A stretch of DNA of 64,000 nucleotides, from positions 3,968,001 through 4,032,000 of the forward strand of contig CM035356.1 of the NCBI GenBank assembly GCA_020137815.1. The letters run 5' to 3'. The notes under the pieces were generated by a model. That model saw only the letters and a program-made list of their open reading frames with translations, searched no databases and was not told the origin of the DNA. Position numbers and translations under genes: made by a program. This document shows positions 5,003 through 58,100 of this stretch, piece by piece. Position 1 is the stretch's first letter. Every line of letters begins with the position of its first letter. Source of the stretch: Hormiphora californensis. Taxonomy: Eukaryota > Animalia > Ctenophora.

Positions 5003-8000
5003 ATGGATTTCAACGGTAAGTGTACGATTTTGTGAGCATTTATTAGGAAATATATTAGCAATATTAGGAGCAATGAGCATTATTAGGGTCATATATTAGA
5101 GCATTATTAGAAGTTAACAAAATTCTTTCGTTTATCCAACATTCATTGCTTTTTATGAAAGTTCTCATTAACTCTTCAGTTCACCAAAGGCAAGGGGGCG
5201 CAGAGCCAGTGCTCTTTGAGGATACATCATCTCCCCACCAACAGGTCAGGTATCACACACAACACCATAAATTATGATAGCGGGGGACGAGCCGTACCTC
5301 CGAAACGGTGATAGTTGTGCAAAAACAAACTACGGGAACATGCTGGAACAATTCCTGGACGACTTTTTGCAAATTATGAAATTTTTATTCAAAAGTTCAT
5401 TTTTCATTCATGAACTTTCTACACGTTCATTAATGAATTAAGGACTCTAATTTACCGAGAGTTGGGTATTTTGTTTGGGTTGGATTTATCTTTCTAATGA
5501 GCACCATAAACATCAAATTGAAGCACCAGGTCACATGGCAGTTGAGAAAATGCACATGCATGATTTTGGCTCTTCCTGCGACTTTCAATCGGCTGTATCA
5601 CGGCTACCTTTTGTTCAATCTTTTTTAAAATTTGGGGGAACATCGGATAAGCAAAGATCTTTCCTCACAAGAAAAATCAAGGTCAAAACTCAAAGTTCAT
5701 TTTTAAGTGTTGGTAGTTCATTCCACTCATTCAGGAACCAACATCCCTAAAGTGATGAAAAGTGATGGTTTTTGTTTGGCCGATACCCTGCAATGATAGA
5801 GAGGTGTAAAAATACGTTTCCGGGCTAGTTAGTGAGTGTCCATGTGATCATGATGATATCTGACACCTTTTCTGAGCCATAATTAACGGATTTTCTCAAA
5901 TGCAAGCATGTGATTTGAGTTTTCGCGATTGGTATCGTGCAGCAATGTTGAGAGATCTCATAGCACCTCAAAAATGATGATTAGTTCAATGAAAAGAATT
6001 GATTTATGATAGAAAAGATTAAAACAGACGTCAAAATGAACTAAACGATAATTTTCAATCATAAATCAACTCCTTTCATTGAACTAATCATCATTTTTGA
6101 GGTGCTATGAGATCTCTCAACATTGCTGCACGATACCAATCGCGAAAACTCAAATCACATGCTTGCATTTGAGAAAATCCGTTAATTATGGCTCAGAAAA
6201 GGTGTCAGATATCATCATGATCACATGGACACTCACTAACTAGCCCGGAAATGTATTTTCACACCTCTCTATCATTGCAGGGTATCGGCCAAACAAAAAC
6301 CATCACTTTTCATCACTTTAGGGATGTTGGTTCCTGAATGAGTGGAATGAACTACCAACACTTAAAAATGAACTTCGAGTTTTGACCTTGATTTTTCTTG
6401 TGAGGAAAGATCTTTGCTTATCCGATGTTCCCCCAAATTTTAAAAAAGATTGAACAAAAGGTAGCCGTGATACAGCCGATTGAAAGTCGCAGGAAGAGCC
6501 AAAATCATGCATGTGCATTTTATCAACTGCCATGTGACCTGGTGCTTCAATTTGATTTTTATGGTGCTCATTGGAAAGATAAATTCAACCCAAACAAAAT
6601 ACCCAACTCTCGGTAAATTAGAGTCCTTAATTCATTAATGAACGTGTAGAAAGTTCATGAATGAAAAATGAACTTTTGAATAAAAATTTCATAATTTGCA
6701 AAAAGTCGTCCAGGAATTGTTCCAGCATGTTCCCGTAGTTTGTTTTTGCACAACTATCACCGTTTCGGAGGTACGGCTCGTCCCCCGCTATCATAATTTA
6801 TGGGCCACACACAACACCATATATGGGCATCACGTGCCACTAATGACACATCATCTCTTCATAAACAGGTTTTTAGTATCACATAGCAACTGCTAAACCT
6901 CTAACACCCCTTCAGGCCCCGAGAAGTGCCCCCATCCACCACCACCAGTATAACCCTCAGCAGGGATCTGCTCCCCAACAACAGCAGCCCAATTTCGAGC
7001 AGTATGGTCAGTATATGAGGGACCCCATGGTGGCAAATATGGCCATGCAGTATGGCAGCAGTCTCGCCACCACTGGGAAGGCCTATGTTGAACAGAACGT
7101 GAGTGAAGAATTGTTAGTGTTGTTCTATCGTGGCAACTATCATCATGATTGTATCATGGTTATAATGTTTTGGTAATATTCAAAACTAGGACATTCTCAA
7201 TATTTTTAGGGTCTCTAATCTCTTAGCTGCAATTGGGGCCCTTAGCTACACCTAAAATACTTCTACCGTGTCTTTGCTTCCTAACTAATGACTAATCAAG
7301 GCAAATCACTCTCCCCCTCTTTTCAGCTGGACAGATACATCCCTATATCGCGGGTTAAGTTCTACTTTGCAGTCACCACTGACTATGTGGTACACAAAGT
7401 GTTGCTTCTCATATTCCCATTTCTCAACAAGGTATACATCAACTTCCCTTTTACACTAAGTATATACAGTTGGACCCCGATTTACCGGGAGGATAAAATT
7501 CCCCCGATATGGGAAAATAACGGTATTTGAACCCGATATACCGGGCACCCCAATTTACCGGGCAAAACCCTTTCCCCCGAGCATCCCGGTAATTCGGGGT
7601 TCGACTGTATCTGCTATTGTTATTGGTCTGTCCTATTGATGCCTAACAGTGCACCCTCCTGCCTCTGCCCTCCATAAATATCACCCCCTTAGGAATAGTG
7701 TACCTACCAGGACCACACTCTTCTCCCCCAGTCACCCCCTAATTAGGAATAGGGTACCTACCAGGACCACCCCCTCCTCCCCAGTCACCCCCTAATTAGG
7801 AATAGGGTACCTACCAGGACCACCCCCTCCTCCCCAGTCACCCCCTAATTAGGAATAGGGTACCTACCAGGACCACCCCCTCCTCCCCAGTCACCCCCTA
7901 ATTAGGAATAGGGTACCTACCAGGACCACCCTCTCCTCCCCCAGAAATATCACCCCCCCCCCACTTTATCAGGAATGGGGGTGCAAAACAGTGACCCCCC

Positions 8001-55100: not shown

Positions 55101-58100
55101 GAGAAAATGACAGATACGTTTCCTGGGTGATAATAGGTAATTAGTAACTATTTAATTAACTAGTAATAGCTCATTGAGTACTAGATGACTTGCTCACCAT
55201 TAGCTGAATTTAAAACTGAACTCCTAACGACTGCAGTATATAGGAGGTGCTTAGCTGAGCATAGTGCTCGCCCTACCCCCGCCACATGTAAAGGTGTGTC
55301 TGTATACTACTCAGCTGTAGCTTCGAGTACTAAACTTGTTGTTTGTACTCATCCAGTCATATCAGCTATCATTGCACTTCCCAATAGAAATCCGCTCCTC
55401 CAATCCTCTATCTTAAATCAGAATCCCACATATATCACTATCTCTACCATTTCATTTAATTTTCCAGGCTGCCTCAACTTTCAAGCTTTAGCTTCCTCCT
55501 TGTGCTCTCCTCCTAACAGCATCCTTTTTTCTATCTCTCACTCTCACTCACTCTCTCTCTCTCTCTCACTCTCCGTCTCACTCTCTCTCTCACTCTCTCA
55601 CTCTCTCACAGTGTGTAGACTCCCAGTCGTTGCATTGTCCAAACTCCAAGGTCCCTTTTTGCAACGAAATATTGTGTGCGTGGCAGTACTGTCTTTGTCT
55701 TGTTCAGACTCTTTCTCGCATGGCCGAACTGCTGTGTTACTTTACTCGTGCTGTGATAGTTCTTTGATAAAGATTTTGTGGCGCAGGAATTACACGTGTT
55801 GATGATTACCTAACGAACATTTTATTTTGGATTCGTACAATTTGTGCATTGAAACTCTTACGATTCAAATATCTTGTTTTTTATGATCAGTCGTTTACTC
55901 ATTTTTGTTCCAGTTGGTTGAAATGTGTTCTACTACTATTATTCATCCACAAAACACTTTTGTAAAGATTACTACATACTCCCTCCCCCTGTTAAATACA
56001 ACTACTAACCCTACGTCACCGTGTTTCTAGCTGCACCTCTACAATGAGGTTGCTAGTGATACTACTGTTGGGGCTCTTGGTTGTCATGGCAACACTGGCA
56101 AGCGACACTGAAATGACAGAGCAAGATAACTTTGATATTGGTGAAATTATGGAGGAAAAGGAAATCATGGACACTATCGATTTGGGTGAGAACTAGTGTG
56201 TTCTTTTGAACATTGAGTGCAGTCTATGTGCGACTTTGAATGAACAAAAACGCGTGATTTGCTCGGTGCAGCTGTTGCTGATTCCAACTCTGCATAGCTT
56301 GTGCCCTACTAAACCCCCCTCCTCCCCTCAGAACTAGCGTGTACCCTATTAAACCCAGTCCCCAGTCCCCCTTGTACCCTATTAACTCAAACTCTTCCCC
56401 CTTGTACCCTACTAAACCCAACCCCCTCCTCTCCTCAGAACCAGAAGACTACGAGGAATACATGAACGAACAAACACCCGACCTAGATAAGGAGTTGGAA
56501 CTACTGGAACGATCTGCAGAAGCCTCTGTGCCCTCATGAGGCTCGTAAATTCTCTCTCTCAAATTGTCATGACAACTGTGTGACGTCATAGTAACTGTGT
56601 GACGTCATGGTAACTATGTGACGTCATGGTAACTATGTGTGACGTCATGGTAACTGATGACACGTTGTCATGGAAACTGATATCGCGTTGTTATGGCAGC
56701 AACAGGAGAGAGAGAGGGAAGCGTTGTGTGGGAATCATTGTGATGACTTAGGTCGTTTAAACAAATCCTTTTTGAGATGGCTTAATGATGTTTGTTACCC
56801 ATTTTAACGTGTTCAAATGCATCTCAGTTGTAATGTATCAATACATAAAAAATGTGAATCACATCTAATAGGAGTAACCCCCCCCCCCCCTCCAAAAATA
56901 CCCCTATAATAGGAGACTCAGTCCCTCACGGACCCAACCCAACTTACCCCAGATAGGCAATAAAAAGTATGCCCCCCTCAACTTACCCCTATATTTTCTA
57001 TTTTCTCGTAAGCAGCATGTACCCTAAGTGTACCCGCTCTTCTTGGCATCAAATGGGGCGTGTTATCCCTAAAGTCGAAGATATGACATGTTGTTTTCGG
57101 GGTGTTAATGGTTAAATTCTATGTGATAATGGTTACTATGGTTACTATGGTTACCTGGTATGAGTGTTATCTAGAAACTCCTGCTCTATGCACTCCACTA
57201 TGTCGGATATCCGGGCAAATTGTTCCAAAGTCTGCTTCAAATTATCCACTTCATTTGCTCGGTCTTCAGCAGCCGTGTTGGCATTCATAAATCCGAGCAA
57301 ATCCTTGGAATTGAGATTGGAGAGTTATCAATTTATCTGGATAAAAACTAGATCTGGATAAAAAATTTTGGCGACATGTGACCGTGAGAATAAGGATATT
57401 TACCTCTACTGTCTGAAGAATGTACAGGATCTGATAGAGAGGTTCCTTCAGCAGTACTTTCACCATGCACGGTATCAAACCACGAACCTGGTACTCGCCA
57501 CCAAACCCCAGAATCACTGCCTCATCCTGGTAAAGATACTATCTTAGATAGGAAGATAGAGATAGACGAAAATAGGGAGAGATAGAGAGTGGGAGAGAGA
57601 GAGAGAGAGATAGTGAACGTGAGAGAGAGAGGAGATATTTAGATAGATACTCACACCTACCTCTAAAAAGTTTACAAAGTTGACTTGATCCAAGAGCTCT
57701 AAAAACTTCTTATATCCTTGCCGATAATTATTCGCATAGTACACATAAACATCGTAGCATTGATCCTGAAATTAGTAAGGGTATTATCCAGTTACATCCG
57801 GGTCGGTTTTGACTTTTGGGACACAATTCTTTCGATGGAGCCAGAATGGAGTCTTTTCACGTGACTCGCGCGCACTTTGGTAAACCCCAGGTTCCCTCGC
57901 GCGAGATGACTTGTCTGTGATGTTTTGCGCCCTCCGCAACATACCAGTGCCTTTTCCAAAAATACAGCCCCGACATGAAATGAGGAATCCTCCCGGATCA
58001 TTTGCTTTGCTTCCTCAAGATCATTTTGGAAGAGCACCTCGAATAAGAGGATGTCGCGGATATTCCCGAAAATGTAGTCCACCAAGTCCATGGAGAGATC

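What the first reader, a model, noticed from the sequence alone, without database searches (positions are those of the whole stretch)
7680..57000. Pervasive tandem duplication of splice junctions: decoy acceptors and donors that appear to seed intronic minisatellites
Seen: in about a dozen introns of unrelated genes the repeated unit is the exon/intron junction itself. Acceptor copies occur in YIF1 (7680-8096; 9498-9548), ATP6V1G (13776/13823/13867), DLEC1 (34499/34534/34571/34642), the Cys-rich gene (41110 vs about 41250), SOS (43433/43475/43523) and the acidic peptide gene (56331 vs 56438). Donor copies occur in DLEC1 (34332/34376) and SOS (43575-43632, 4 copies of 22 nt; 51235-51340; 52945-53000, 3 copies; 53167-53226; 56942/56981). 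In every acceptor case I checked for frame, the frame-preserving copy is the one closest to the exon. Inference: a lineage-wide, junction-focused duplication process lengthens introns and generates minisatellites, and splicing must reliably skip near-identical decoys. This is my best candidate for an undescribed system here.
Basis: partly seen in the sequence, partly recalled or inferred. Interest (0 to 1): 0.8.

Follow-up and report, generated by a model that had tools for sequence, protein, structure and literature searches.

The report
Comb-jelly splice-junction "mirage" repeats
Short stretches of DNA have been copied head-to-tail in many small introns of these comb-jelly genes, and about one exon border in ten got copied along, leaving spare splice signals that the cell likely skips; this is a known kind of repeat, and it occurs here about as often as random copying in short introns would give.

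Summary
The copies are real. I modelled 69 introns in 7 genes (all GT-AG, median 182 nt). All seven acceptor cases and three of six donor cases are true junction copies; two donor cases are not, one is marginal. But local duplication is common everywhere in these introns (29 repeat families in 54 short introns, about 1 in shuffles). Of 30 families in 61 introns, 12 span a junction; random placement predicts 9.5 (P=0.19) or 10-12 in a forward simulation. Repeat cover falls towards junctions, with no peak, and the DLEC1 stop codon is duplicated the same way. A modest excess (about 1.3-1.8x) is not excluded; some slices reach P 0.005-0.05. That the exon-side copy keeps the frame follows from the geometry. 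The kind is known: amphioxus 'mirages' and human F7, CBS, 6-16 junction minisatellites; this scan found it before on other DNA. What remains interesting: equal-strength decoys in introns short enough for intron definition, where the decoy should win. No same-species RNA was listed, so skipping is inferred.

The parts
713..821 (-). SMC5/6-like gene intron 4: decayed ~70-nt duplication crossing the acceptor (decoy AG at 786; intron would be 50 nt).
7662..8114 (+). YIF1 intron 4: 53-nt minisatellite whose unit holds acceptor plus 18 nt of exon head; real AG ends 8096, copies end 7692, 7746, 7799, 7852, 7905, 7972, 8035
   Evidence: exon fixed by homologues P0024-P0027
8288..8368 (+). YIF1 intron 5: weak degenerate repeat reaching over the acceptor (score at threshold; no decoy AG in register)
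9498..9547 (+). YIF1 last intron: 27-nt duplication, decoy AG ends 9514, real 9541; decoy use adds an in-frame stop; only the real site has a branch-point-like word at -19
13776..13903 (-). ATP6V1G intron 2: 45-nt unit x3, real acceptor 13780, decoys 13826 and 13871
34331..34421 (+). DLEC1 intron 12: donor copy at +44 with 10 exon nt; weaker than the real donor (2.7 vs 5.5 bits)
34478..34693 (+). DLEC1 intron 12: nested acceptor duplications (35, 37, 71 nt); decoys end 34499, 34534, 34571, real 34642; the 71-nt copy holds 51 exon nt and is exact over 68 nt
39762..39852 (+). Control: 24-nt duplication (3 copies) crossing the DLEC1 stop codon, not a splice site
40429..40494 (-). Cys-rich gene intron 3: 30-nt duplication ending 2 nt before the acceptor (abuts, no decoy AG)
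41098..41267 (-). Cys-rich gene intron 1: acceptor copy at 41254 (would leave a 39-nt intron) with a 12-nt array filling the space to the real acceptor
43427..43563 (-). SOS last intron: 42-48-nt acceptor copies, decoys 43479 and 43527; both inserts in frame but with stops
43574..43662 (-). SOS last intron: internal 22-nt x4 array with a palindromic X-box-like word; donor-like but not shown to be a junction copy
49741..49793 (-). SOS intron 21: old donor copy at +31, GT changed to GC.
51231..51339 (-). SOS intron 18: 62-nt duplication with 16 exon nt plus 9-12-nt repeats of the donor word; six GT sites scoring 6.6-9.2 against 8.5
52930..53003 (-). SOS intron 16: 23-nt x3, decoy donors at +23 and +46 scoring as the real one (8.9); real donor matches the joint in a relative's contig
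53167..53225 (-). SOS intron 15: 35-nt-period copy starting at intron base +1 (abuts, no exon base)
53395..53607 (-). SOS intron 14: 50-nt array with X-box-like words starting at +1 (abuts)
53793..53877 (-). SOS intron 13: 22-nt array with X-box-like word starting at +3 (abuts)
56295..56444 (+). Nested acidic-peptide gene intron: acceptor copy ending 56331 (real 56438) with a 30-nt array between
56940..56989 (-). SOS intron 9: second donor at +39 sharing 11 exact nt with the real one; marginal
57129..57154 (-). SOS intron 8: 9-nt x3 array starting at intron base +1 (abuts).

Best explanation
These are short local duplications that cross exon-intron borders ('mirages'), most likely by-products of a high general rate of tandem copying in short introns that selection filters, with the spare splice signals likely skipped. 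Steps: (1) shown: local duplications are frequent in non-coding DNA of this window and nearly absent from coding exons; (2) shown by calculation: with introns of 80-250 nt and units of 10-70 nt, about a third of randomly placed surviving duplications cross a junction; (3) follows from geometry: a copy that crosses a junction leaves one intact copy next to the exon, so the gene survives if that copy is used, whereas copies wholly inside exons are purged; (4) inferred: a first two-copy repeat invites further slippage or unequal exchange, giving nested copies and minisatellites; (5) inferred: the spliceosome picks the exon-side site because only it is followed by the full exon, helped in some cases by a minimum intron size, a weaker or mutated decoy, or a better branch point; errors in internal introns would be removed by nonsense-mediated decay. 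No dedicated junction-targeting system is needed.
For: Repeat cover 0.011 in coding exons, 0.170 in introns up to 900 nt. 29 families in 54 short introns vs 0.95 in shuffles. Spanning 12 of 30 families vs 9.5 expected (P=0.19), 13 of 42 vs 10.8 and 11 of 24 vs 7.8 at other thresholds; forward simulation with uniform placement gives 10.2-11.9 spanning and 13.7-14.9 touching of 30 (P 0.30-0.57 and 0.09-0.18). Cover falls from about 0.2 in the intron interior to 0.11-0.12 in the 10 nt next to the junction and 0.06-0.08 in the 10 exon nt next to it. The DLEC1 stop codon is duplicated in the same way (1 of 8 stop codons, 0 of 8 start codons). Rival sites within 2 bits of the real one also occur in 5 (acceptor) and 7 (donor) of 27 introns with no repeat. 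Copies are mostly diverged, so not assembly artefacts. Decoys that are weak or unusable: SMC 786 (50-nt intron), Cys 41254 (39 nt), SOS +46 (65 nt) against a shortest seen intron of 79 nt; GT to GC at 49746. Precedent that such copies stay silent: PMC1557585, PMC3087553, PMC3902484.
Against: The analytic null gives an excess of touching families (18 of 30 vs 12.6, P=0.021; 16 of 24 vs 10.1, P=0.005) and, after dropping X-box families post hoc, of spanning families (10 of 21 vs 6.2, P=0.043; 9 of 17 vs 5.0, P=0.024). Nine of the 12 spanning families are at acceptors (P=0.15 against an even split). The sample is small: 12 of 30 has a 95% range of 0.23-0.59 against a null of 0.34-0.40. The null depends on my estimate of pre-duplication intron length. 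Several decoys score as high as the real site in introns under 250 nt (YIF1 9514 11.1 vs 10.4; DLEC1 9.5-9.9 vs 10.4; SOS +23 8.9 vs 8.9), where the proximity rule in PMC9225289 would favour the decoy; at DLEC1 the only branch-point-like word lies before a decoy.
Confidence: 0.68

Rival explanations
1. There is a real but moderate bias of duplication towards junctions, caused by local sequence or chromatin (pyrimidine-rich low-complexity acceptor tracts, palindromic donor words, or breaks at exon borders), on top of the general process.
For: Touching families 18 of 30 vs 12.6 (P=0.021) in the analytic null; spanning 10 of 21 vs 6.2 without X-box families. 9 of 12 spanning families at acceptors. 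3 of 4 donors starting GTAAC carry an adjacent repeat vs 4-5 of 65 others (Fisher P=0.003-0.004, post hoc). 19 of 24 X-box-like words in short introns lie in repeats.
Against: The forward simulation removes most of the excess (P 0.09-0.18 touching, 0.30-0.57 spanning). No peak at junctions. Several slices were tested, so P near 0.03 is weak. X-box-like arrays also lie far from junctions (43574, 50149, 56566), which points to the word, not the splice site.
Confidence: 0.24
2. A dedicated, lineage-wide system duplicates splice junctions (for example repair coupled to splicing) and the decoys tune splicing or gene output through nonsense-mediated decay.
For: 10% of junctions carry a copy (12 of 122); many decoys keep full-strength signals and all acceptor decoys lead to frameshift or stop.
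Against: Frequency fits random placement; units, ages and exon overlaps (4-51 nt) are unrelated between genes; some decoys are decayed or unusable; three lie in last introns, where junction-dependent decay would not be expected to act (established knowledge, recalled); the same geometry at a stop codon.
Confidence: 0.05
3. The duplications are assembly artefacts.
For: The assembly seems to hold small errors: one extra base breaks YIF1 exon 6 against six homologues; an exact 558-nt tandem copy lies at 51567-52682; the DLEC1 71-nt copy is exact over 68 nt.
Against: Most copies differ by substitutions and indels and are nested by age, which assembly errors do not produce. At most the exact ones could be false.
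Confidence: 0.03

Closest known systems
Amphioxus 'mirage' minisatellites (Adh3, Canestro et al. 2002, not readable here; globins BflGb6 and BflGb9, PMC3087553; troponin C and PGBD5, PMC3902484)
   Same: Tandem copies spanning 5' or 3' exon-intron borders in several unrelated genes; units of 10-72 nt at Adh3; many but not all keep AG/GT; reported not to disturb splicing; repeats that abut a splice site also described (passages read).
   Different: Here a ctenophore; mostly 2-4 copies; very short introns; splicing outcome and length instability not measured here. The passages I read give no test against random placement.
Human junction minisatellites: F7 intron 7 (37 bp), 6-16 intron 2, CBS intron 13, LMNB2, PDGF intron 4 (PMC1557585)
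   Same: First unit spans the exon-intron border; identical pseudo-donors follow; the exon-side donor is used (abstract, synopsis and introduction read).
   Different: Donor side only in that paper; here 9 of 12 are acceptors, where a 5'-to-3' scan would meet the decoy first.
Internal tandem repeats that alter human gene structure; Rogers model of intron gain by duplication (PMC2812944)
   Same: About 30-nt units, few copies, some at exon-intron borders (passages read).
   Different: No new intron or exon is seen here: DLEC1 and YIF1 match their homologues without inserts at these junctions.

Membership tests
mirage / junction-spanning minisatellite | Repeat unit holds both intron and exon sequence of a real junction | tested here: met
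   12 of 30 families in 61 introns; alignments; borders backed by open frames, homologues, Pfam register and a relative's contig
mirage / junction-spanning minisatellite | Tandem or near-tandem arrangement with the terminal copy as the real junction | tested here: met
   Periods 23-71 nt at YIF1, ATP6V1G, DLEC1, SOS; Cys-rich and peptide genes have 107-143-nt spacing filled by secondary arrays
mirage / junction-spanning minisatellite | Copies often keep AG/GT signals | tested here: met
   Scores; one GT to GC change
mirage / junction-spanning minisatellite | Normal splicing uses the exon-side site | tested here: inconclusive
   Only inferred from reading frame. The one run laid is a relative mostly under 90% alike; it fixes the ancestral borders, not the choice among decoys
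mirage / junction-spanning minisatellite | Copy number varies between alleles or cells | not testable with these tools
   One sequence only; no reads of this animal listed
   12 of 30 vs 9.5-12 expected; some slices P 0.005-0.05 under the analytic null; large excess (2x or more) unlikely, 1.3-1.8x not excluded
   Cover falls towards junctions; a stop codon is also duplicated

The most novel reading that the evidence does not exclude
In this ctenophore lineage short introns are continually rebuilt from copies of their own ends: duplications biased to acceptors and palindromic donor words add sequence, deletions take it away (8 introns collapse to 25-75 nt without their repeats, below the shortest intron seen, 79 nt), and the spliceosome picks the exon-side site among equal decoys even in 100-300-nt introns. 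That would be natural evidence for exon-centred splice-site choice in one of the earliest-branching animal lineages, testable genome-wide with thousands of built-in decoy pairs.
Probability: 0.2. Interest if true: 0.6.

Novelty: new member of a known kind. Interest (0 to 1): 0.27.

Why it matters
As it stands it extends a known repeat type to ctenophores and shows, on a small sample, that its frequency needs no special mechanism. If about 10% of junctions genome-wide carry a near-identical neighbour, existing ctenophore RNA data would give a large natural experiment on how splice sites are chosen in short introns (intron-side versus exon-side rule). It also warns annotators that these copies can produce false exons.

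Tried and rejected
No whole genome was held, so no genome-wide test. No RNA holder was listed for the SOS stretch; the single added run X1 is a relative mostly under 90% alike, laid on two stretches: useful for ancestral exon borders only (joint at 52886-52996; 448 letters between 52808 and 49862 equal my exon sum without a suspected 54-nt exon, which I dropped). Metagenome scans for a ctenophore repeat gave 0 loci, then 5 loci of 1.0-2.3 kb that look mostly like transcripts, so orthologous introns could not be compared. The SOS homologue search found nothing and the representative search never ran; SOS borders rest on open frame, Pfam RasGEF_N and RasGEF hits and X1. PDB searches with ATP6V1G exon 3 found nothing. 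My first reading that the ATP6V1G copies lack AG (note 58) was wrong and was corrected; searches used the uncorrected border for that one intron. An apparent excess of arrays abutting junctions (7 vs 3) fell to 6 vs 3.1 (P=0.08) after the correction and to 2 vs 2.0 without X-box families. Eight introns over 900 nt (transposon or nested-gene filled) were left out of the gapped catalogue; the ungapped catalogue of all 69 gave 10 of 53 spanning vs 7.1-10.2. Low-complexity and 1-6-nt repeats were filtered out. Intron gain at the DLEC1 71-nt copy was rejected: the inner GT would leave an intron of only about 34 nt. Canestro 2002 was not held. Paper searches for a ctenophore report listed none by title or abstract start; most subscription papers are not searched and no supplements were read.
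Full report
Setting. The window is animal DNA, 44% G+C. The best DLEC1 relative is from the ctenophore Bolinopsis microptera (58% identity), which supports a ctenophore. 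I built models for seven genes: an SMC5/6-like gene, YIF1, ATP6V1G, DLEC1, a Cys-rich secreted protein, a SOS-type Ras GEF and a nested acidic peptide. Pfam supports YIF1, V-ATPase_G, RasGEF_N, RasGEF and an AAA/SMC N-terminus; the names SOS and SMC5/6 are recalled from architecture. All 69 introns are GT-AG, median 182 nt, shortest 79, and 52 of 69 are 300 nt or less. Frames are open except for one extra base in YIF1 exon 6. DLEC1 and YIF1 exons match homologues; a contig of a related species supports SOS joints.

Observation. Aligning every junction to its own intron confirmed all 7 acceptor cases and 3 of 6 donor cases. The best example is YIF1 intron 4, where the 53-nt minisatellite unit carries an AG and 14-15 of the first 18 exon bases. 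DLEC1 intron 12 has three acceptor copies of 35, 37 and 71 nt and a donor copy. Two donor cases fail: the 22-nt array at 43574-43662 lies 290-356 nt from the donor and shares 9 nt with it, and the copy at 53167-53225 holds no exon base. One is marginal (11 nt). I found further cases in SMC intron 4 and SOS intron 21.

Is it more than chance? The repeats are: 29 families in 54 introns up to 400 nt against 0.95 in dinucleotide shuffles. The question is whether they favour junctions. A gapped catalogue of the 61 introns up to 900 nt gave 30 families at score 30, in 23 introns: 12 span a junction by 3 nt or more on each side, 6 end within 4 nt of one, 12 are internal. Placing each unit at random on the collapsed intron predicts 9.5 spanning (P=0.19), 3.1 abutting (P=0.08) and 12.6 touching (P=0.021). 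A forward simulation with uniform placement, mutation and a similar aligner predicts 10.2-11.9 spanning and 13.7-14.9 touching, giving P 0.30-0.57 and 0.09-0.18. Against my reading: at score 36 touching is 16 of 24 vs 10.1 (P=0.005), and without the 9 X-box families spanning is 10 of 21 vs 6.2 (P=0.043), both under the analytic null and chosen after the fact. Repeat cover is 0.011 in coding exons, about 0.2 inside introns, 0.11-0.12 in the 10 intron bases next to a junction and 0.06-0.08 in the adjoining 10 exon bases; interior cover counts both copies, so about half of it is the fair comparison, which matches the junction value. One of 8 stop codons (DLEC1) is duplicated in the same manner and 0 of 8 start codons. 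So most of the pattern is geometry; a bias of 1.3-1.8 times is possible, a strong targeting process is unlikely.

The frame argument. The same holds mirror-wise for donors. What the frames do show is that the decoys would be harmful: every confirmed acceptor decoy gives a frameshift or a stop, and three such introns are the last of their gene.

Decoy quality. With leave-one-out matrices from the 69 junctions, several decoys equal the real site (YIF1 9514, DLEC1 x3, peptide 56331, SOS +23, +46). Others are weak, mutated (GT to GC) or would leave introns of 36-68 nt. A branch-point-like word (recalled consensus; seen before 36 of 69 real acceptors and 105 of 495 internal AGs) lies at about -19 before the real site only in YIF1 intron 7 and the Cys-rich gene, before real and decoy sites in ATP6V1G and SOS, and before a decoy only in DLEC1. 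Rival sites of near-equal score also occur in 5-7 of 27 introns with no repeat, so skipping look-alike sites is routine.

A second pattern. A near-palindromic word resembling the RFX X-box (name and consensus recalled) occurs 34 times against 8.1 in shuffles; 19 of the 24 in short introns lie in repeats, most in SOS (copies inflate this count, about 9 of 11 separate places by my reading of that list). It overlaps donors that begin GTAAC and explains four of the six abutting arrays, but it also forms arrays far from any junction. It may be a copying hot spot; function is untested.

Mechanism. Shown: frequent local duplication, purge from exons, expected share at junctions. Inferred: origin by slippage or break repair (the two young exact copies have 3-4 unmatched letters at the seam), growth by further exchange between copies, exon-side choice. 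PMC1557585 (abstract, synopsis, introduction) reports that only the most upstream of identical donors is used in F7. PMC9225289 (passages) reports that in introns under about 250 nt the site nearest across the intron tends to win and in long introns the site nearest across the exon; the first rule would favour the decoys here, which is the open point. PMC6142364 (passages) reports frame-preserving exon skipping in Mnemiopsis, compatible with some exon definition. PMC8527503 (passages) reports 13% tandem repeats and many non-coding indels in the ctenophore Hormiphora, compatible with a high background rate.

Known kind. PMC3087553 and PMC3902484 (passages) describe 'mirages', tandem copies of exon-intron borders in several amphioxus genes that do not disturb splicing; the name came to me from earlier notes of this scan, which list eight such cases in other animals, and I checked it in those two papers. 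PMC2812944 (passages) covers human cases. Searches listed no ctenophore report. Verdict: real, a new member of a known kind, not an undescribed system; interest 0.27.

Noticed in passing
window 8392-8394: One extra T shifts the frame of YIF1 exon 6 against six ctenophore-like homologues; likely an assembly error.
   Followed up: partly
window 734-57154, mostly 43591-57154: X-box-like near-palindromes are 4 times over-represented, cluster in SOS introns and are usually repeated; a similar cluster lies at L001 1481-1550.
   Followed up: partly
window 51567-52682: Exact 558-nt tandem duplication inside SOS intron 17; recent event or assembly artefact.
   Followed up: no
window 5265-6803: Foldback element with 752-nt arms, 99% complementary, in YIF1 intron 2.
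   Followed up: no
window 10450-13314 and 61454-63965: Foldback elements whose arms hold the same 32-nt minisatellite, between YIF1 and ATP6V1G and at the window end.
   Followed up: no
window 44353-45967 (-) and 47383-48897 (+): Intronless genes nested in SOS introns: a cyclic-nucleotide-binding protein with an apparent frame change near 44860, and a major-facilitator transporter.
   Followed up: partly
window 56044-56539 (+): Nested two-exon gene for an 80-residue acidic peptide with a signal-like start; no Pfam hit for exon 1; possible secreted peptide precursor.
   Followed up: partly
window 40268-41335 (-): 118-residue Cys-rich protein with a signal-like start, and a donor-like site just after its stop, at 40267.
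   Followed up: no
window 43840-43929 (-): A 90-nt open stretch ending in a strong donor (11.1 bits) starts 8 nt after the last SOS donor; possible alternative exon or alternative donor.
   Followed up: no
window 17073-20107: A 750-nt 8-base array ends at an acceptor-like site (17820) followed by a donor-like site (17943) and a 2-kb 22-base array; possible untranslated DLEC1 exon or repeat remnant.
   Followed up: no
window 25700-30300 (-): A LINE-like retroelement with frame breaks fills DLEC1 intron 4 (read by eye; class recalled).
   Followed up: no
window 13774-13780 (-): Two AGs 6 nt apart at the ATP6V1G acceptor score alike (7.8, 8.6); an in-frame two-residue alternative is possible.
   Followed up: partly
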